Shown: positions 31,495 through 44,832 of the stretch, piece by piece
How positions within the stretch are numbered: position 1 is the first letter of the stretch
Layout of the letters: every line of letters begins with the position of its first letter
From: Terriglobia bacterium
Lineage (GTDB): Bacteria > Acidobacteriota > Terriglobia > 20CM-2-55-15
Length of the DNA stretch: 64,000 nucleotides
Assembly: GCA_965198225.1 (NCBI GenBank)
Contig: CBDAOY010000004.1
Span: 64,001-128,000 of the forward strand
Direction of reading: 5' to 3'
Notes under the pieces: generated by a model
Database searches by the model: none
What the model was told of the DNA's origin: nothing
What the model saw: the letters and a program-made list of their open reading frames with translations, nothing else
Translations under genes and position numbers: made by a program

Positions 31495-31700
31495 ATTCCT
31501 GAAAAGGTCGTGGCTTTATTGCTCGCCGTCCTGGGGGTGACCAAGACCCACTCCCGGCCGCATGTTTCCGATGACAACCCGTTTTCCGAGGCCCAGTTCA
31601 AAACGCTGAAGTACCGGCCGGGTTTCCCCGAACGTTTCGGCTGTATCCAGGATGCCAAGGCGTTCTGCCGCGACTTCTTCGGCTGGTACAACAACGTTCA
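31495..31700 (+). mobile_element. IS3-family transposase internal fragment
   Basis: LGVTKTHSRPHVSDDNPFSEAQFKTLKYRP...FFGWYN. Confidence 0.78.
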
Positions 31701-31722: not shown

Positions 31723-31831
31723 GTAGAGTCGACGACTGGCGCGGTGGCGGTAGGCAAAGGGGGTAGCTGTTGCCGGTGGCTTTCGCCGATTCCGGTGCCT
31801 CACTCCTCGCCGTGGCTTCGTTTCCAGTCGC
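31723..31831 (-). mobile_element. Group II intron B: orphan 3' end (long DVI)
   Basis: GCGACTGGAAACG...CGCCAGTCGTCGACTCTAC, with a self-complementary DVI stem and AC end. Confidence 0.7.
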
Positions 31832-31918
31832 ACCGGGTGGCCGGAGGCAGTTGCCCGCCTCCGGCTCCCACAGAACGCAGCGTGCGGATTTCCCGCACTG
31901 CGCTCTTCAGAATTGGAT

Positions 31919-33241
31919 TTACAGCACAGCGAGAGACTGGAACTCCCGATAGCGGAGAGCCAACTTGGGACGCTGTAACGGAAAGTGCAGCTGAATCCGG
32001 TTGAATACTTCCCACCGGACGAAGCCTGCACGACTACGACTGCTGAGCATTTGGCGCCAGTAACGTTCCACGGCCCGAGCGACGTGCTGCAGAGCCCGGA
32101 GGTTCCCGGCAATGCCATAGTAGGCGTAGTGCCCGCGCAAGACTCGGTTCAGATTGTGCACTTGCTCCCGGACCGGCAAGTGACGCATTCGCCTCATCAC
32201 GCCGCGTAGATGAGCCAGACTGCGTCGAAGTCGAGACTTCTCTGTTCGCAGTCCCACTCTAAAATTGCCTTTGCGATTACGCGTACAGTACAGGGTCATG
32301 CCCAGAAAATAGATCGTCTCTGGACGTTTTCTCCCGCGCCGGACGACATCGCGCTGGGCATAGCGGCCGAATTCGACGAGCTTCGTCTTGGTCGGCTCCG
32401 GAACCAGTCCAAACTTTCCCAGTCGCTTGCGCAGAACGTTCTGGAAACGAAGCGCATCGTCCCGATATTGGAAACACACGACAAAGTCGTCGATGTACCG
32501 CACCAGATACGCTTCACCCTTCAGGCGTGGCCGGACCATCCGGTCAAACCACAGGTCAAGCACATAATGCAGGTACAGATTGCTCAGCAGAACGCTGATC
32601 GACCCACCTTGCGGGGTTCCCTCTTCGTTCGAATGCAATTCCCCGTCTTCGAAAACGCCCGCCTTTAACCATCGTCGTATCAGACTGATGATCCGCGGAT
32701 CTCCGACTCGATGCTCCACAAAGCGGAGTAGCCATCCATGGTCTAAACTCCCGAAAAAGTTCTTCAAGTCCGCCTCCAACACCCAACTCACCTTGCATCC
32801 GGAAATCACCTCATGGAGGGTTGCCAGTGCATTGTGGGCGCCCAGCCCAGGCCGGCCACCAAAGGAACAGGGCAAGAAGTCCTGCTCGTAGATGGCGACC
32901 AATACCTCGGCCACGCTGCGCTGAAGGGCCCGATCTTGAACACAGGGCACGCCCAGGGGACGTTTCTCCTGCTTGCCGGGCTTGGGGATATACACCCGCC
33001 GAATCGGCGGAGCGCGATATCCCTTCTGGTGAACAGACTGGAGCATTGGCTCCACCCAGACTCCGAATTCCTCCTTCGCCTCCGGTACCCTCTGACCATC
33101 ACATCCGGGAGCCGTGTTGCGGGGCACTTGACACAGGTTCTTCCACACACGCTCTCGGGTGACATGATGCGCCAGTGACGTGAACCGGAGCTTTGGCTCA
33201 CTCCGAGCTTTCGCCGCTATTCGTTCCAGTTTCGTTTCCAT
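31919..33241 (-). CDS. ltrA: Group II intron reverse transcriptase/maturase, no endonuclease domain
   Basis: APGCDG, RRVYIPK, RPLGVP, EADLKNFF, GTPQGG, YIDD and domain X LRGHYAYY. Confidence 0.95.
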   Translation of the reverse strand: METKLERIAAKARSEPKLRFTSLAHHVTRERVWKNLCQVPRNTAPGCDGQRVPEAKEEFGVWVEPMLQSVHQKGYRAPPIRRVYIPKPGKQEKRPLGVPCVQDRALQRSVAEVLVAIYEQDFLPCSFGGRPGLGAHNALATLHEVISGCKVSWVLEADLKNFFGSLDHGWLLRFVEHRVGDPRIISLIRRWLKAGVFEDGELHSNEEGTPQGGSISVLLSNLYLHYVLDLWFDRMVRPRLKGEAYLVRYIDDFVVCFQYRDDALRFQNVLRKRLGKFGLVPEPTKTKLVEFGRYAQRDVVRRGRKRPETIYFLGMTLYCTRNRKGNFRVGLRTEKSRLRRSLAHLRGVMRRMRHLPVREQVHNLNRVLRGHYAYYGIAGNLRALQHVARAVERYWRQMLSSRSRAGFVRWEVFNRIQLHFPLQRPKLALRYREFQSLAVL

Positions 33242-33367
33242 GACTGGTTGTTCCTCTCGTTGCATAGAGGACCGTATCCTCCCGTTGCATGGAGCTCATG
33301 TTTCCCAAGAACGAGTCCACTTCTGCTGGCCGCTTCCCCATGTGATCGGCTCTCCCGACCTCGGAGT

Positions 33368-34438
33368 GTAGAGTCGAAAGTGGTCGGGCCGATCGGCCCT
33401 TCCACCGTCCGCTCAATCAAACGGCTCGTGCGGTTTTCCCGCAAGCCGCTTTCCTCAGTTGCTCCTCGTTCGGAATTCGCTGTGTGGCGGCAGGTGGCGG
33501 CTTCGTTCGTACCGCGTTTGGGTCTTTCGCTAAGGGAACTATCCAAGTTCGCACATTCACGATATCTCCTCCACCGTCCGCTCAATCAAACGGCTCGTGC
33601 GGTTTTCCCGCAAGCCGCTTTCCTCAGTTGCTCCTCGTTCGGAATTCGCTGTGTGGCGGCAGGTGGCGGCTTCGTTCGTACCGCGTTTGGGTCTTTCGCT
33701 AAGGGAACTATCCAATTCCACGATCTCCGCGTTTCCCATCGCTCGCACATTCACGACTGAGTACGGGGACTTCCCCCTCCAACGGGCCTTTTGGACCCGC
33801 CAGCGCCGCTGCTCGAAGCAACGATCCGAGACCTTATGTTTGCCGTCTCGTTCCTGAGTACTATTCCCCGATCCGATTCCTGACACCGCGTCGGCCGGAA
33901 TTTCGCTCTCGCTTATATCCGCACCTACCGCGCAGGGCTCTAGGTCGATGTTTGTCTTCTCGGTTGCCCGCCCTTTCGTCTGCGGGTGCCACATCATCTC
34001 GACCTTACCTTCCGCTCGGACGATACCAGGCCTCCCTGGGTCACTCGCGTCTCTTCTCCACCGTGTCGCCCGCACACACCTTGGTGCGATGGGGTGGAAC
34101 CAATGCGCCTTCGCCCCAATAGTGCGGGCTCGACCATTCCCCATCTTTGGCCGACCGGTTCATCCTCGGGATGGCTCCCGTCGATTACGACCCGGTGGTT
34201 CTCCTCATGCCCTTCAGACCCCACCTCGCGGTGGGCGCCCTGCCCTCCAAAGTTTCCGTAGCTGGCTCCAGCTTTGCCTTGGCCGTATCCGGCTTTCGCC
34301 TTCGTGCCCGTTTAGGCATCTGCACTACCTGTCTACACTTCGGCCAGTGAGGCATTACCCCCACTTGTTGGATATCGACCCGTGGCCTCGGGCCGAGCGG
34401 GACTTTAACCCGCCGGAAACGCGTGCTGCCAGGCACGC
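33368..34438 (-). ncRNA. ORF-less group II intron C nested in domain III of intron A, with duplicated DV
   Basis: Starts GCGTG and ends CGACTCTAC; DV AAGCGGCTTGCGGGAAAACCGCACGAGCCGTTT; EBS1-like ACTATT at 34118-34123. Excision restores CTGGCTGATAGT|ACTCCGAGG of the host DIII. Confidence 0.8.
33401..33715. repeat. 146-bp direct repeat (33401-33546, 33570-33715) with 23-bp filler
   Basis: Read directly from the sequence. Confidence 0.95.
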
Positions 34439-34839
34439 ACTATCAGCCAGTCTGACTTCCGACAGGCCTTCGGGTCTTCCTCGCGTTGTTGGCTTGTCCA
34501 ACCCTACAAGCTCCGCTTGAACCTGACGGATCTCCCTTGTTCCCATGAAATCCTTGGTTGCATGCCGGCGGTACGAACCCCGGAAGCACCCCAGGGCACT
34601 TGCCATTGCGTGCCCTGCGATTCCGCCTTCCCCCTAGAGCGACAGGGTCGGCTACTTCAACCACGTTCGATTTCGGGGCTATCTTTCCGTTCACTGGTGT
34701 TCCGGCCTACTCCCTCCCTGTCTACGCTTCGCAGTGTCCGTCACCGACCACCACGCAAGACTCGGTACGTGGCTGCCGGCTAGGCTCTGCCACGGCCGCC
34801 ATCTCAGGCGACTGGATCTCATGCGCTTGCAAGGCGCAA

Positions 34840-35807
34840 CGCTCCCGGAACCCTGCGTCCTGATGCACCAGCAGCATCCGCACCCGGACATCGGCTGCCA
34901 GTCCGCTCAAGGTGTCCGATACGATCAGGCCGCTGCCGAGGTCCACGCCCGCGCCCGTCTCGGCGTCCCCGCCGTCGCGCCGCAGCCCGATCTCGACGGT
35001 CGGCGTCAGCGCCAGTCGGCCTGCGAGGCGGTAGTGCCGCGAGCCTTCGAGCCCCGTCCGGAACCGGGTGACCGTCGCCGTGGTCGCCGCCAGCCGCCCG
35101 GTCGGGCCGTCCACCGCGTCGCTTGCCGTGCCGACCCACAGGGCGTCGGCCTTGAACGCCAGCGCGAAGCCGCCCACCACCGAGTCCGCCAGATCGCCCC
35201 GCAGGCCTCCGGCCGCCATGGCCATCGACAACCCGCTCTTGAGCGTTGGTCCCCCGCCCGGCGTCAACGCCAGCGCGCCCTTGCCGTATCCGGTCACGCC
35301 CCACAGGGTGATCCGGTCGGTCACCTTGTAGCCTAGCCAAGGGTAAAGGCCCGTCACCGACGAGATTACCTCGCCGGCGTCGGCTCCCGAGTAGCCGCCC
35401 CGGCCCCGGCTGTGTGCCAGCGACAGGCCCGCCACCAGCGGCCCTCGCGCGTAGTCGGCCCCGACCATCGTCGTGCGCACGTCGCCGCCCAGCGACAGAT
35501 CGCCCTCGCGGCCAGCGAAGCGCGACTGCGCCCCCCGGCTCCAGAACGAGAGGATGCCGCCGCGCGTCTCGCGGGTGAGCGCAACGTCGGAGCCGGTCAG
35601 CAAGTCGCCGCCGCCGAGACCCATCCGGAGCAGCCCGCCGGTGTGCATCATCCCGTCGCCGGCGCCCGGCGGCTGCCCGCCGGCCAGACCGCTGAGATGG
35701 CTGAGCACGTTGAGCGCGATGTCGCGCTCCATGCCCCGTCGCAGTTCCCGGCCGGCGACCCGGCCCCGGAAGCCGGGCTCGCGGGGCGCCGCCAGCCGGG
35801 CCTCCAC
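34840..35807 (-). pseudogene. Autotransporter beta-barrel fragment, cut by intron A
   Basis: SFWSRGAQSRFAGREG, GADY, LYPWLGY and EIGLRRDGGDAETGAG; no passenger domain or 3' end present. Confidence 0.8.
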
Positions 35808-36319
35808 ATGCTCGTGTGGCGCTCACCCGAACAGGCGGCACCGGACAAACCCGGCGAGGAGGTCCGTGGCCGACGTGCCGACGCGGGGGATAAACGGCCA
35901 AAGAGCAGGGGACGTGACGGACGCCCACAGGGCGAGTTGGAACGATCTGGCCGCGGCCCCTGACGCCGTGACCCGCGGAGGAAGCCGAAGGACGGGTAAA
36001 TGGCACCACAAACATGCGGAACTGTGAATGGGGGCCGGCCCGGACGGAGCAAGGAAAGCGAGGGCTTGTGCATTGCCCAAGCGTAAAGAACCGAGAAAAT
36101 AGGGCGAGCCTGGAGCGATGCAGTGTGTTGAGGTCGTTGATCACCGCGCTCATTGGCGGGAGCCGTCCGCATTTTGACGGTGCCCCGGCTTCAACGAGCA
36201 CGGTCACAACCGCCGGAATTGTGTTTGGTACATGGGCTGGCACATTGAACGCAAGCATTGACTTGGGCATCGCGCAGTATTAATGTGATGCAATTGACAT
36301 TGAGTGACTTCGGAGTATC

Positions 36320-41244: not shown

Positions 41245-43452
41245 GTGCGCCATGAAGGCGCGGTTGGAGGAATCCAGCCAAGCTGGCTGGTTTCTGACCG
41301 GCAGTTGAGATACTGCCCCACTCGGTCAGGGAGCCGAGTGGAAGGGGGTTGCAAAGCTTCGCCATATGCCGATGGCGGGGTGTCATGAGCAGCGCAGCCT
41401 GAACTGTACCAGACGCGATCCATTCATCGTGGGCTGGGCTACCGCAGGACCTATGGCGAGACAACGAAGCATGCGGGGGAAGCCCCTGTATTTAGCCGGA
41501 CAACCCTCGTAACGGAATGGATTGGGGGGATGTGGTGCGAACTGGCCGGACTTTATGTTTCCGGCTGGTGGCTGCGTCGGACGCTGCCGATGATGGGAGT
41601 TCCCCATTGCCATCATCCAGAGCCACCAGGGGTAGAGCATGCCACCTACAGGGTCCACAGGTTGGGAACCGGAACATGGGAACCCGCCATCTTCCGCCCG
41701 TAAACGGATACGGGCTAACCGCGGCGGTCGGCGAAGGAAGGCGGTGGGGGCGGAGTCTCCGTAGTAGTCCGAGACCGGGAAAGCCGGTTACATGGCGAAG
41801 GGAGACAGGGAGTCGATAAGCTTTCGAAGCCGGAGGAGCGATCTGTGGACACAGATCAACGGGCGGACCGAGCCTGGTTACTCGGCGTGCAGCGGAAGTT
41901 GTATCAATGGAGTCGGGAACACCCCGGCGAAACGTATCGTGAACTGTGGAATTGGGTGACCGATATCCGCAACTTGCGGTGCGCCTGGAATCGTGTGTCC
42001 CAGAATCGGGGCCACCGCACACCAGGTATCGACGGGCAGACGGTAGGAAAGATTCGCCGCAGGTTGGGCGAGGAAGCCTTCCTGGAGGGGCTACGCTGCG
42101 AACTGCGGGCGGGGGCATTCACACCCAGTCCGTGTCGCCGAAAGCTCATTCCCAAGGTAGGCAAACCGGGGCAGTTCCGACCTCTGGGGATTCCTACGGT
42201 CACCGACCGCGTGGTGCAATGCGCGGTCAAACAGCTTCTGGAGCCGATAGTCGAAGCGCGGTTCTGGCACGTCTCGTACGGTTTTCGACCGGGTCGAGGA
42301 TGTCACGGCGCTTTGGAGCATATTCGGATGGCAATGCGACCGCGACGACGGAACGACGCGGACGGCAAACGTCACGATCCCCCTTACCAATGGGTGATCG
42401 AAGGCGACATCAAGGGTTGCTTCGATCATATCGATCACCATCTGTTGATGAACCGGGTGCGTCGGCACTGCGGGGATCGCAAGGTGAATCGATTGCTCGT
42501 GCAGTTCCTGAAAGCCGGCGTTCTGGCGGAGGATCAGTTCCTCAGAACTGATGCCGGGACGCCGCAGGGAGGAATCATCTCGCCGCTGCTTGCGAACATC
42601 GCGCTCAGTATCATCGAGGAGCGGTACGAGCGGTGGGTGAACCACCAGACCAAGCGTCAGGCACGACGGACATCGAGCGGGATCAAGGCGGCGCTGGAGG
42701 CTCGGAGCACGGATCGCCGGTCAGGCCGGAACGTGTTCTTCCCGATCCGGTACGCTGATGATTTCGTCGTACTCGTCTGTGGGACTGAAGCTCAGGCTCA
42801 GGCTGAACGGACAGCATTGGAAGCAGTGCTGATGGACAGCATGGGATTGACTCTGTCACCTGAGAAGACTCGAATCACTGCCTTAACGCGAGGATTCGAG
42901 TTTCTCGGACACCGCGTGCGACTGCGTTGGGATCCTCGATACGGCTGGACGCCGCGCGTCGAGATTCCGAAACACAAAGTCGCCGATTTGCGCTATCGGG
43001 TCAAACAGTGGACCGGTCGCGCAACGACGCCTTGGCCTTTGCCGAAGTTATTTCGGAAGCTGAATCCCATCCTCCGTGGTTGGGCGCACTTCTATCGTTA
43101 CTGTACCGGGGCCAAGAAGATTCTCTTCAGTCTCGACTGGTATGTTCGAGATCGGCTCTGGCGTTGGCTACGGAAGAAGATGCCGAAGGCGCAAGTCTCA
43201 TCGTTGTTGCGGTTTCGGAAGCCGAGTTCGATCCGTCCTGCGTGGCGGGTCTGGCGAGACGGCCGATCCGAACAGTTTCAGATGGGATGGCTGACGGTTC
43301 AGCGCTACCGTCGCGGCTGGATGCGAGCCCCCGACTTTACATGGACTTCTGGAGAGCCGGATGCATAACGAAAGGTGCACGTCCGGTTCGGCGAGAGGGC
43401 ATGCGAAACCTCCGCTGGTTAACAGCGGCTCGGCGCGCATGCCCTACTCAAC
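41245..43452 (+). mobile_element. Complete group II intron
   Basis: GTGCG start; DV GAGCCGGATGCATAACGAAAGGTGCACGTCCGGTTC; ends CTACTCAAC. Removal restores GAC ATC A|CC TAC (D-I-T-Y). Confidence 0.93.
41845..43368 (+). CDS. ltrA: Group II intron reverse transcriptase/maturase, no HNH domain
   Basis: TPGIDG, RPLGIP, SYGFRPGR, EGDIKGCFD, GTPQGG, YADD and LNPILRGWAHFY. Confidence 0.95.
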   Translation: MDTDQRADRAWLLGVQRKLYQWSREHPGETYRELWNWVTDIRNLRCAWNRVSQNRGHRTPGIDGQTVGKIRRRLGEEAFLEGLRCELRAGAFTPSPCRRKLIPKVGKPGQFRPLGIPTVTDRVVQCAVKQLLEPIVEARFWHVSYGFRPGRGCHGALEHIRMAMRPRRRNDADGKRHDPPYQWVIEGDIKGCFDHIDHHLLMNRVRRHCGDRKVNRLLVQFLKAGVLAEDQFLRTDAGTPQGGIISPLLANIALSIIEERYERWVNHQTKRQARRTSSGIKAALEARSTDRRSGRNVFFPIRYADDFVVLVCGTEAQAQAERTALEAVLMDSMGLTLSPEKTRITALTRGFEFLGHRVRLRWDPRYGWTPRVEIPKHKVADLRYRVKQWTGRATTPWPLPKLFRKLNPILRGWAHFYRYCTGAKKILFSLDWYVRDRLWRWLRKKMPKAQVSSLLRFRKPSSIRPAWRVWRDGRSEQFQMGWLTVQRYRRGWMRAPDFTWTSGEPDA

Positions 43453-44449: not shown

Positions 44450-44832
44450 ACCTATCTCCTTTGTGACTTATGACGTAAAGACCTTGTTCTGAAGCCACCC
44501 CCGTAGTCCTCTCTAGGGCGACCAAACGATTCCGGTCTGCGACTCCCGGGTTTATACACGCACCTTTCGACTTCTAAGATTATGGGGCCGGACCATCGAG
44601 TCTACCGTAGTGCTTGACTTCTTCGATGCTAAGAGTGGCGAGTTGCTGGCCTAGCAAGGGTACAACCCAGATTCGTGTAGAGTCGACGACTGGCGCGGTA
44701 GCGTCTCATCGCCGCCGCTACGACCACCAACCGTCGACCCTTTCCGGGCACATGCCCCACGCGCGAGTCCACCGGCGACTGGGCCGGGGTCGCCGCCCGC
44801 TGTGGAGATCGTTGAGTGAACCACGGATCCCG

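What the first reader, a model, noticed from the sequence alone, without database searches (positions are those of the whole stretch)
33368..34438. ORF-less group II intron apparently specialised to home into domain III of other group II introns
Seen in sequence: a 1071-nt minus-strand insert with DI/DIII/DV/DVI-like motifs but no RT ORF splits intron A. Excising exactly 33368-34438 restores CTGGCTGATAGT|ACTCCGAGGTCGGGAGAGCCGATCACATGGGGAAG, which parallels the intact DIII of the 41-kb intron (CGTAGTAGTCCGAGACCGGGAAAGCCGGTTACATGGCGAAG). A stem-loop GCCC-gcACTATTg-GGGC (34118-34123) followed by GAAGGC lies where EBS1 is expected and pairs with the 5' exon end GATAGT. That places the 5' splice site at GCGTG, 2 nt inside the apparent GTGCG. 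The element's own DIII carries a perfect site, AATAGT|ACTC (33856-33865). Established: bacterial twintrons and ORF-less introns exist. Inference: this is a non-autonomous hyperparasite that targets the conserved ATAGT|AC motif, must splice out before A can fold, and borrows an RT in trans.
Basis: partly seen in the sequence, partly recalled or inferred. Interest (0 to 1): 0.88.

Follow-up and report, generated by a model that had tools for sequence, protein, structure and literature searches.

The report
Intron that invades other introns' domain III
This is a small self-splicing intron with no protein gene of its own, lodged precisely in a conserved catalytic loop of another such intron, and it belongs to a widespread lineage that mostly lives inside other introns.

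Summary
Window 33368-34438 (minus strand) is a complete ORF-less group II intron. It sits in the 5' strand of the domain III (DIII) internal loop of an RT-encoding group II intron (31832-34840). Empty versions of the same site in related genomes fix both boundaries to the base. The intron therefore starts GCGUG, not at the apparent GUGCG.

This genome holds about 16 full copies. The canonical form is 904 nt. The window copy has an extra 169-nt tandem duplication that includes DV. Two intact 2.15-kb parents, 96% identical, encode an endonuclease-less RT.

Two EBS1 variants (ACUAUU, ACUAUG) track the base at exon position -6. A 77%-identical relative has a fully changed, still complementary pair.

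Nine insertion-site types in this genome lie in DIII of introns from four Rfam D1 families, one of them the element's own DIII. One type is ectopic.

In metagenomes, 29 of 40 RT-encoding relatives tested have a host D1 just upstream. DIII homing is therefore a trait of the lineage.

One contig from an RNA library joins 34439 to 33367 exactly.

Retromobility in trans and the order of splicing are inferred. I found no description of DIII homing in the papers held.

The parts
33368..34438 (-). Inner ORF-less group II intron. This copy is 1071 nt; the canonical family form is 904 nt.
   Evidence: Boundaries come from empty versus filled sites. There are 35 BLAST pieces in the own genome. The canonical form was defined.
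34434..34438 (-). Intron 5' end GCGUG. It aligns with GUGUG/GUGCG of relatives, so position 2 is C instead of U.
   Evidence: In one search, 60 of 61 metagenome relatives start GUGYG and one (L188) starts GCGUG.
34439..34444 (-). IBS1 (GAUAGU): the last six bases of the 5' exon, lying in the DIII internal loop of the host intron.
   Evidence: It is complementary to EBS1. The base at -6 covaries with the EBS1 variant.
33367..33367 (-). First base of the 3' exon (A).
   Evidence: Position +1 is A at every 3' junction listed and at 11 of 11 metagenome loci. No EBS3 partner was identified.
34128..34235 (-). Domain I segment resembling Rfam group-II-D1D4-3.
   Evidence: RF02001 scores 24.5 bits, E 0.034, below the gathering score of 32. 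The 77% relative L035 scores 32.4 bits, which reaches gathering.
34113..34129 (-). EBS1 hairpin: stem GCCC/GGGC, with the loop carrying EBS1 ACUAUU at 34118-34123.
   Evidence: In L035 the stem pair changes C-G to U-A and the loop becomes CCAAAG, opposite the exon CUUUGG.
33765..33871 (-). The element's own domain III, with an unoccupied self-site AAUAGU|AC between 33860 and 33859.
   Evidence: It folds with basal stem CGGGGA/UCCCCG and the 5' internal loop AUAGUA; z = -2.56. Other copies are split exactly at canonical position 579|580.
33570..33715 (-). First unit of the 169-nt-period tandem duplication. It contains the duplicated DV (33588-33619) and a truncated DVI.
   Evidence: 146 nt are identical to 33401-33546. 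RF00029 scores 28.8 bits at 33541-33622. Contigs of runs X16 and X7 carry the non-duplicated form.
33419..33450 (-). Domain V, the 3' copy next to the complete DVI. It has the AGC triad, a 2-nt bulge and a GAAA-type loop.
   Evidence: RF00029 scores 36.9 bits, E 6.5e-6, at 33368-33453.
33368..33414 (-). Domain VI. The putative bulged branch-point A is at 33374 and the 3' end is ..CUAC.
   Evidence: The RF00029 alignment ends at 33368. The branch-point A is inferred from the sequence.
31832..34840 (-). Outer (host) group II intron A. D1 is 34570-34804. The DIII halves are 34439-34450 and 33326-33367. The RT ORF is 31919-33265. DV/DVI is 31832-31907.
   Evidence: RF02005 scores 137.2 bits and RF00029 47.1 bits. 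Pfam finds RVT_1 and GIIM. The ends come from comparing copies.
31723..31831 (-). A 108-109-nt tail behind host A. It is the 3' part of DVI of a third intron type ('Y'), in which other copies of host A are nested.

Best explanation
Window 33368-34438 (minus strand) is a non-autonomous, ORF-less member of a lineage of endonuclease-less group II introns. The natural homing site of this lineage is the YRUAGU|A motif in the 5' strand of the internal loop of domain III of other group II introns.

Proposed mechanism:
- The EBS1 loop in domain I (ACUAUU) base-pairs with the last six exon bases (GAUAGU).
- The excised intron RNA reverse-splices into DNA right after that U.
- A reverse transcriptase copies it. 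In this genome the RT is most likely the one encoded by the two intact 2.15-kb parents, which are 96% identical, and it would act in trans.

The motif is conserved in DIII of introns of several structural classes, and the element's own DIII carries it too. As a result the element accumulates inside other introns and inside itself, giving nests up to four deep.

Shown: the boundaries, copy number, site specificity, EBS1-IBS1 covariation, the RT-encoding parent, lineage-wide DIII targeting, and one RNA-library contig with the exact ligated junction.

Inferred: retromobility in trans, dependence of host folding on prior removal of the inner intron, and whether this duplicated copy is still active.
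For: Boundaries: 7 empty and 2 filled host-A-type sites among relatives. Self-nested copies are split at canonical position 579|580 with no target duplication.

Group II identity: DV/DVI scores 36.9 bits and ends on the last base. There is a weak D1D4-3 match. The parents encode RVT_1 + GIIM and no HNH domain.

EBS1: U-variant copies sit at R(-6) in 5 of 6 site types. G-variant copies sit at Y(-6) in 12 of 13 (Fisher p 0.0029). Relative L035 has loop CCAAAG opposite exon CUUUGG plus a compensatory stem change.

Targets in this genome: hosts A, B, C, D, F, F', G and H belong to Rfam D1D4-2, -3, -4 and -6. The sites fold as DIII. Only a small share of the genome's 1,672 RTAGTA sites can lie in DIII. 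My rough upper bound is 60 such sites, from 32 DV matches plus about 20 copies of the element; the RTAGTA count is.

Independent insertion: host D is empty 7 times and filled once, and host C has 3 empty relatives. In G024 the inner element is 900/904 identical while its host flanks are only 90.2% and 86.0% identical.

Lineage: the EBS1-hairpin pattern occurs in at least 120 metagenome contigs. Of 61 with the 5' end present, 47 have CAUAGU or CGUAGU and 56 of the flanks are unique. Of 40 scanned, 29 have an Rfam group II D1 on the same strand 80-390 nt upstream. Ligated flanks fold as DIII in about 5 of the 9 loci with enough 3' flank. The RTs of the 38 loci with a long tblastn match are 36-80% identical to the parent RT, median 56%; the lowest values may belong to host RTs.

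RNA: run X15, a metatranscriptome, has a 159-nt contig that joins 34439 to 33367 with no ambiguity and is identical to the window over 129 nt. Runs X1 and X7 cover the host at depth 46 and 23 and show no such joint.
Against: - Targeting is not exclusive. One copy lies antisense in a membrane-protein ORF.
- In G027 the 94%-identical RT-encoding copies have no Rfam D1 upstream at the 3 loci scanned. One of them interrupts a 455-aa frame in sense. Only 1 of about 8 G027 sites looks like DIII.
- No IBS2/EBS2 pair or other DIII-specific determinant was found. Recognition beyond 7 nt is therefore unproven.
- In this genome none of the at least 6 host A copies is empty, which fits spread of the composite as well.
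- G020 and G024 carry the ORF-less element but no RT closer than 37-40% identity.
- The element scores below Rfam gathering for both D1 (24.5 against 32) and DV (36.9 against 40).
- The window copy has two DVs and may be defective.
- The RNA joint is one contig in one of two RNA runs. It could come from a strain with an empty site or from DNA in the library.
Confidence: 0.85

Rival explanations
1. The element recognises only a 6-7-nt motif (IBS1 plus position +1). Its concentration in DIII is then a survivorship effect. Insertions into other introns are neutral safe havens, while insertions into genes are lost, so there is no true specialisation for DIII.
For: No IBS2 or other determinant was found. 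Positions -7 to -11 vary with the host's DIII stem. In G027 most sites are non-intronic and one interrupts a reading frame in sense. There is an ectopic antisense insertion in an ORF.
Against: The EBS1 hairpin sequence recurs among relatives whose RTs are 36-80% identical, though they were retrieved by that very hairpin pattern. Its complement is the DIII loop motif of hosts from four D1 families. 29 of 40 metagenome loci are in introns. Roughly 9 of 11 site types in this genome are in DIII, out of 1,672 RTAGTA sites genome-wide. An intron in a gene in sense orientation can be spliced out, so selection alone should not remove such copies.
Confidence: 0.25
2. The copies in host A did not arise by separate insertions. 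The composite (host A with the inner element already inside) spreads as one unit, by retrohoming of the unspliced twintron or by DNA-level duplication and recombination.
For: None of the at least 6 host A copies in this genome is empty, and their flanks are 99-100% identical. G020 has the same doubly nested arrangement at 100% identity on a 16.6-kb contig. Chimeric flanks (host B 5' side with host A 3' side) show recombination between copies.
Against: The element lies in at least 8 different host types and in itself. In G024 the inner element is 99.6% identical while the host is only 86-90% identical. Hosts C and D are mostly empty. The inner copies differ in state: single, nested, or duplicated.
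Confidence: 0.3
3. The window copy itself is a dead relic. The 169-nt duplication, which gives two DVs and a truncated DVI, prevents correct folding. This particular twintron then no longer splices, and host intron A at this locus is inactivated.
For: The duplication is seen only in this copy among all those in the genome. The locus is scrambled: an apparently truncated upstream ORF (read by eye), the tail of a third intron without its 5' part, and a transposase fragment behind it.
Against: D1-DIII, the 3' DV, the complete DVI and the 3' end are all identical to active-looking copies. Natural introns with repeated DV/DVI still splice: the C. tetani intron is described in a review passage I read. 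The RNA joint cannot be assigned to any one copy.
Confidence: 0.4

Closest known systems
Thermosynechococcus elongatus TeI3 ORF-less introns inside TeI4 introns (Mohr et al. 2010, PMC2882425; passages read)
   Same: ORF-less derivatives of an RT-encoding intron family that are mobilised in trans. [quoted passage not shown] The inner copies are nearly identical while the outer ones have diverged.
   Different: There the site lies in DIV, between two start codons of the RT ORF, in closely related introns. Here it is a ribozyme-core loop in DIII, shared by hosts of four Rfam D1 families and by the element itself. The intron also starts GCGUG.
Methanosarcina acetivorans nested introns (Dai and Zimmerly 2003; paper not held, known from its title and review passages in PMC4424553)
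   Same: Repeated site-specific homing of ORF-less and RT-encoding introns into other group II introns. Nests reach five deep, are balanced by recombination, and provide a 'perpetual homing site'.
   Different: By the paper's title, the homing sites there are in related intron ORFs, not in DIII. I could not read the details.
Trichodesmium erythraeum twintron T.e.I7/I8 (Pfreundt and Hess 2015, PMC4649490; passages read)
   Same: A bacterial twintron whose inner intron interrupts a structurally important ribozyme domain and is spliced first.
   Different: That is a single locus, the inner intron lies in domain I, and both introns encode proteins. There is no family of copies and no conserved target in other introns.
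Hypermobile cox1i1149g2 of lycophyte mitochondria (Zumkeller et al. 2020, PMC7049729; passages read)
   Same: A group II intron that invades itself and other introns.
   Different: It is organellar, its sites are in DIV and DI, and several copies are 'zombie' insertions that no longer splice.
Class C (IIC) bacterial group II introns (a passage of PMC4424553; the rest is recalled)
   Same: An endonuclease-less RT, and a very short base-paired target instead of a long homing site.
   Different: IIC introns insert behind terminator-type stem-loops (recalled). Here no upstream hairpin is evident. The D1 resembles Rfam D1D4-3, and IBS1 is 6 nt.

Membership tests
Group II intron ribozyme | Domain V (34-nt hairpin, AGC triad, 2-nt bulge) followed by domain VI with a bulged A and a 3' AY end | tested here: met
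   RF00029 aligns over its full length at 33368-33453 (36.9 bits, E 6.5e-6). That is below the gathering score of 40, but the alignment ends on the last base. Another copy of the element scores 33.4 bits.
Group II intron ribozyme | 5' end GUGYG | tested here: inconclusive
   The end is GCGUG, fixed by empty and filled sites. It differs from the consensus at position 2 and is homologous to GUGUG/GUGCG in relatives.
Group II intron ribozyme | Domain I recognised by a curated covariance model | tested here: inconclusive
   RF02001 scores 24.5 bits against a gathering score of 32. The 77% relative L035 scores 32.4 bits.
Group II intron ribozyme | An EBS1 loop in domain I complementary to the 5' exon end | tested here: met
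   There are six base pairs. Covariation is seen within the family (p 0.0029) and in L035.
Group II intron ribozyme | EBS2-IBS2 and EBS3-IBS3 (or delta-delta') pairings | tested here: inconclusive
   Exon position +1 is always A. Inspection found no convincing EBS2, IBS2 or EBS3.
Group II intron ribozyme | Self-splicing or protein-assisted splicing at the predicted junctions | tested here: inconclusive
   One RNA-library contig joins 34439 to 33367 exactly. It is a single contig, and DNA of an empty site cannot be excluded.
ORF-less (non-autonomous) derivative of a mobile group II intron | No RT ORF, and a closely related RT-encoding intron in the same genome | tested here: met
   Compared with the parents, a stretch of about 1250 nt that holds the whole RT is missing. 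Two parent ORFs are intact and carry RVT_1 + GIIM. The three 170-195-aa ORFs scanned inside the insert have no Pfam family.
ORF-less (non-autonomous) derivative of a mobile group II intron | Mobilisation in trans by that RT | not testable with these tools
   This is inferred from about 16 near-identical copies at distinct sites. Against it, G020 and G024 lack a close RT.
Twintron | One group II intron lying inside another, with the outer intron's domains on both sides | tested here: met
   The host's D1 (RF02005, 137 bits) lies upstream. The host's RT ORF and DV/DVI (RF00029, 47 bits) lie downstream on the same strand. The two DIII halves flank the insert.
Class C (IIC) introns | Insertion behind a terminator-like stem-loop, and IIC ribozyme features | not tested
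   No upstream hairpin was noted in the flanks. The RT class was not determined.

The most novel reading that the evidence does not exclude
An old and widespread lineage of bacterial group II introns is present in Terriglobia MAGs and in at least 120 metagenome contigs; their habitats were not checked. Its RTs are 36-80% identical to the parent RT. The lineage has made the domain III loop of other group II introns its natural homing site, so its members are hyperparasites of mobile ribozymes. They hit hosts of at least four structural families, and themselves, because the target is a conserved core motif the host cannot easily change. Two bolder extensions are not excluded. First, the target may be read as a folded DIII-like hairpin in single-stranded DNA that exposes the motif in its internal loop. 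Second, RT-encoding members living in compact ORF-less hosts may supply those hosts with their RT, which would make some of these twintrons mutualistic pairs.
Probability: 0.5. Interest if true: 0.85.

Novelty: new variant of a known kind. Interest (0 to 1): 0.8.

Why it matters
The review passages I read describe bacterial twintrons and ORF-less introns as rare curiosities. The known intron-in-intron homing sites lie in the dispensable DIV or ORF region.

Here the target is a conserved loop of the ribozyme core. Three things follow:
- One short EBS1 gives access to many unrelated host introns.
- The host intron is presumably disabled until the parasite splices out.
- Self-targeting builds nested arrays and repeats that then recombine.

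The element also offers:
- a natural experiment on how far DIII tolerates interruption;
- a natural example of retargeting by a single EBS1 base (U or G, matched to exon position -6);
- a 5' end, GCGUG, that departs from the consensus.

In practice, annotation pipelines that look for an RT, or that rely on Rfam gathering scores, miss both the inner element and the split outer intron.

Tried and rejected
- Whole-molecule MFE folding of the 904-nt element did not give a recognisable six-domain fold. I used it only for local hairpins.
- The EBS1 hairpin alone is not more stable than shuffles (z = -0.67). Its support comes from covariation, not from folding energy.
- A home-made regex and stem scan for DIII-like sites across the genome was too permissive, with 89 mostly random hits, and it missed known hosts. 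I used it only to count 14 uninterrupted self-sites.
- I looked by eye for EBS2/IBS2. Candidates were the UAAUCGAC loop, a CGAR motif at -12 to -9 in the G027 sites, and J2/3 GUCRGA. None holds across sites, so I rejected them as unproven.
- The 26-nt 5' end of the element has 0 exact matches in metagenome contigs. In genome contigs it matches only 4 stretches, from two MAGs already found.
- An RT search over 301 genomes of the phylum found nothing closer than 49% identity outside the family.
- Pfam finds nothing in the 483-aa ORF upstream of host A. My reading of the neighbouring frame as autotransporter-like is by eye only.
- RNA run X16 shows no 34439|33367 joint. I do not count this as evidence either way.
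I read passages of PMC4424553, PMC2882425, PMC4649490, PMC4476101, PMC8919778, PMC3552965 and PMC7049729, and the outline of PMC12584367. None mentions homing into domain III.
- Dai and Zimmerly 2003 (PMC1370365) and Simon et al. 2008 (PMC2525955) are not held. I did not ask for any supplementary files. A prior description may exist in any of these.
- I did not determine the RT class (bacterial A-F and so on).
- Structure prediction, complex prediction and the protein-database searches were not needed and were not used.
Full report
**What is at the coordinates.**
Read on the minus strand, 34438 to 33368 begins GCGTGCC and ends CGACTCTAC. Rfam at gathering scores sees only the surrounding intron: D1 (RF02005, 137.2 bits, 34570-34804) and DV/DVI (RF00029, 47.1 bits, 31832-31907). 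Between these lies a 448-aa ORF with RVT_1 and GIIM. The frame is therefore an RT-encoding group II intron, host A. Comparison of its copies puts its ends at 34840 and 31832.

Inside the insert, Rfam gives sub-threshold but full-length matches.
- D1D4-3 scores 24.5 bits.
- DV/DVI scores 36.9 bits (E 6.5e-6) at 33368-33453 and ends on the very last base.
- A second DV scores 28.8 bits at 33541-33622.

The three 170-195-aa ORFs scanned inside the insert have no Pfam family.

**A multi-copy family.**
The genome that holds the window has 35 BLAST pieces of the insert.
- The canonical element is 904 nt.
- The window copy equals canonical positions 1-871 followed by about 711-904. This is a tandem duplication with a 169-nt period that repeats DV and half of DVI.
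- I count about 13 contiguous ORF-less copies and 3 complete outer copies that are split by a nested copy, plus fragments.
- There are also three 2.15-kb versions, two of them intact. They are 96% identical over the RNA parts and carry about 1250 extra nt.
- That extra stretch encodes a protein with RVT_1 (E 2.8e-33) and GIIM (E 1.5e-19) and no endonuclease domain.

**Exact boundaries.**
Several copies of the element are interrupted at canonical position 579|580 by another complete copy. The uninterrupted site reads ..AATAGT ACTCAGG.., and the interrupted one has the whole element between T and A, with no target duplication. The first and last bases of the insert differ from the neighbouring exon bases, so the boundaries cannot slide.

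The same test works for host A. Host-A-type introns, 89-92% identical to host A, have the site empty in G012 (x2), G021, G005 (x3) and G003. The site is filled in G020 and G024, as it is in the window.

The intron therefore starts GCGUG. The GU in front of it belongs to the exon. That GU is replaced by GC or AU at three sites. Relatives align GUGUG or GUGCG to this GCGUG.

**EBS1.**
The loop ACUAUU (34118-34123) sits in a short hairpin just behind the segment that matches D1D4-3. It is complementary to GAUAGU. Two kinds of covariation support the assignment.

First, the family has two loop variants.
- ACUAUU copies lie at sites with a purine at -6: host A, the self-site, host G, host E and C5:3834, which is 5 of 6 site types. 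The exception is a flank chimera.
- ACUAUG copies lie at sites with C or U at -6 in 12 of 13 site types. These include the RT-encoding parents, the G027 copies, and the copies in hosts C, D, F and F' and in host B of G020.
- Fisher's exact test gives p = 0.0029. The sites are not fully independent.

Second, a 77%-identical relative (G042, L035) has the loop CCAAAG opposite the exon end CUUUGG. It also has a compensatory C-G to U-A change in the hairpin stem.

I found no convincing EBS2/IBS2.

**Where the copies sit.**
In this genome the element lies in host types A, B, C, D, F, F', G and H and in itself.
- Rfam finds a group II D1 of family D1D4-6, -2, -3 or -4 just upstream of every one of these hosts.
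- The ligated flanks of hosts A, C and F, and of the intact intron at 41.7 kb in the window, fold as DIII. The fold has a basal stem, a 5' internal loop AUAGUA, an inner hairpin and a GAAG-type 3' loop. The insertion point is in the 5' loop.
- The flanks of hosts D and G did not give this fold by MFE.
- The element's own DIII folds the same way.
- The genome has 1,672 RTAGTA sites. At most a few dozen can lie in DIII, given 32 DV matches.
- Occupancy differs by host. Host A has 0 empty among at least 6 copies, host D has 7 empty and 1 filled, host C has 3 empty relatives, and host G has 2 of 2 filled.

There are exceptions.
- One copy lies antisense in a 234-aa membrane-protein frame.
- In G027 the 94%-identical RT-encoding copies have no Rfam D1 upstream at the 3 loci scanned, and one interrupts a 455-aa frame in sense.

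**The trait belongs to the lineage.**
- Of 80 loci returned, 61 contain the intron's 5' end with at least 30 nt of flank. Of these, 47 end in CAUAGU or CGUAGU.
- 56 of the 61 flanks are unique, and 44 match a strict J2/3-like pattern.
- I scanned 40 loci, choosing mainly those with the most upstream sequence. Of these, 29 have an Rfam group II D1 (families D1D4-2, -3, -4, -6) on the same strand 80-390 nt upstream of the inner intron.
- Four of the other 11 have flanks that do not look intronic.
- These relatives are 1.9-2.0-kb RT-encoding introns, apart from one 4.7-kb case. In about 5 of the 9 loci with enough 3' flank the ligated flanks fold as DIII, and position +1 is A in 11 of 11.
- In the 38 loci with a long tblastn match the RT is 36-80% identical to the parent RT of this genome, median 56%. 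The lowest values may be host RTs.

**RNA evidence.**
Sixteen runs hold at least half of the sampled words, two of them metatranscriptomes. In RNA run X15 one 159-nt contig (depth 11.7) lies on 34439-34567 without a mismatch and continues 30 nt at 33367. It skips exactly 1071 nt with no positional ambiguity. The other RNA run (X16) shows no such joint. Neither do two runs of unrecorded kind (X1, X7), which cover the host at depth about 46 and 23. This is what a spliced host transcript would give. An empty-site strain, or DNA in the library, cannot be excluded.

**Independent mobility or composite spread.**
- For independent insertion: in G024 the inner element is 900/904 identical to the canonical copy, while the host flanks are 90.2% and 86.0% identical to host A. 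There are many host types, and mostly empty hosts C and D.
- For composite spread or DNA-level events: every host A copy here is filled. G020 has the identical double nest on a 16.6-kb contig. Two loci combine a host B 5' flank with a host A 3' flank, which shows recombination between copies.
- G020 and G024 have no RT closer than 37-40% identity. Either the element arrived there inside a host intron, or another RT serves it.

**The window locus.**
Host A is followed by the 108-nt DVI tail of a third intron type (31723-31831). In four other copies, host A sits right behind that type's DV. One locus in this genome is therefore nested four deep. In the window, the 5' part of that third intron is missing and a transposase fragment follows. 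With its duplicated DV, this copy may be inactive. I cannot tell.

**Comparison with the literature.**
Intron-into-intron homing and ORF-less copies served in trans are known. Examples are T. elongatus (site in DIV), Methanosarcina (intron ORFs; review passage), Trichodesmium (D1, single locus) and lycophyte mitochondria (self-invasion in DIV). Reviews call ORF-less introns and twintrons rare in bacteria. None of the seven searches that ran, nor the passages I read, mentions DIII as a homing site. Two key papers are not held. I therefore rate this as a new variant of a known kind, with a lineage-level twist that may be new.

**Limits.**
- There is no experimental splicing or mobility data.
- The RT class was not assigned.
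- The metagenome sample was selected by an exact EBS1 pattern.
- The Rfam check covered 40 of the 61 usable loci.

Noticed in passing
window 31723-31831 (-); G000 C6:839.7-843.6 kb: Host intron A is itself nested. In four other copies it sits right behind the DV of a third intron type ('Y'), at ..GAUGAGC|GUUGCG... It is followed by Y's 108-nt DVI tail, which ends ..GUCGACUCUAC. One locus is nested four deep (Y > A > element > element). In the window only the tail of Y is present.
   Followed up: partly
window 44677-44790 (-): A second Y-like intron 3' end (..CGCCAGTCGTCGACTCTAC) is followed by ACGAAT.., as at other Y sites. Rfam reports nothing here at gathering scores.
   Followed up: no
G000 C5:889958-890863 and C4:150750-152235: These loci have chimeric flanks: the 5' flank of host B joined through one element copy to the 3' flank of host A. 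The true 3' flank of host B is seen in G020 (L047). Copies of the element evidently serve as substrates for homologous recombination.
   Followed up: partly
L032/L057 (G020 contig_24, 16.6 kb) and L033 (G024): MAGs placed in other genera carry copies of the ORF-less element that are 99.6-100% identical, but no close RT. This points to recent horizontal transfer, or to a binning artefact in the case of the short contig.
   Followed up: partly
L216, L139 (metagenome contigs): Some hosts of the RT-encoding relatives are compact ORF-less D1D4-6 introns; L216 and L139 are the two I examined. The host DV lies only about 180-250 nt behind the inner intron's 3' end. The only RT in such a twintron is the one in the DIII-borne inner intron, so it may possibly serve both.
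   Followed up: no
L049 (G042:C65, around 778-1175): The DVI end of one copy (..CCGACCCGAC) directly abuts the GTGTG 5' end of the next copy. This is a head-to-tail arrangement with no exon between.
   Followed up: no
window 41760-41830 (+), DV at 43352-43452: The plus-strand intron in the window has an intact DIII with an unoccupied CGUAGU|A site. By the -6 rule it would be a target for the G variant of EBS1.
   Followed up: partly
window 34841-36270 (-) and 31560-31700 (+): Upstream of host A is a frame that reads by eye like the end of an autotransporter beta-domain. It is not restored by removing the introns, and Pfam finds nothing in the 483-aa ORF. Downstream, on the other strand, is a fragment that reads like an integrase-core (rve-type) transposase.
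   Followed up: partly
G000 C8:902508-903484 and C5:63403-64012: Other copies of the element carry their own small internal duplications: 66 nt of canonical 456-521, and about 41 nt of 525-565. The window's 169-nt duplication is therefore not the only such defect in the family.
   Followed up: no
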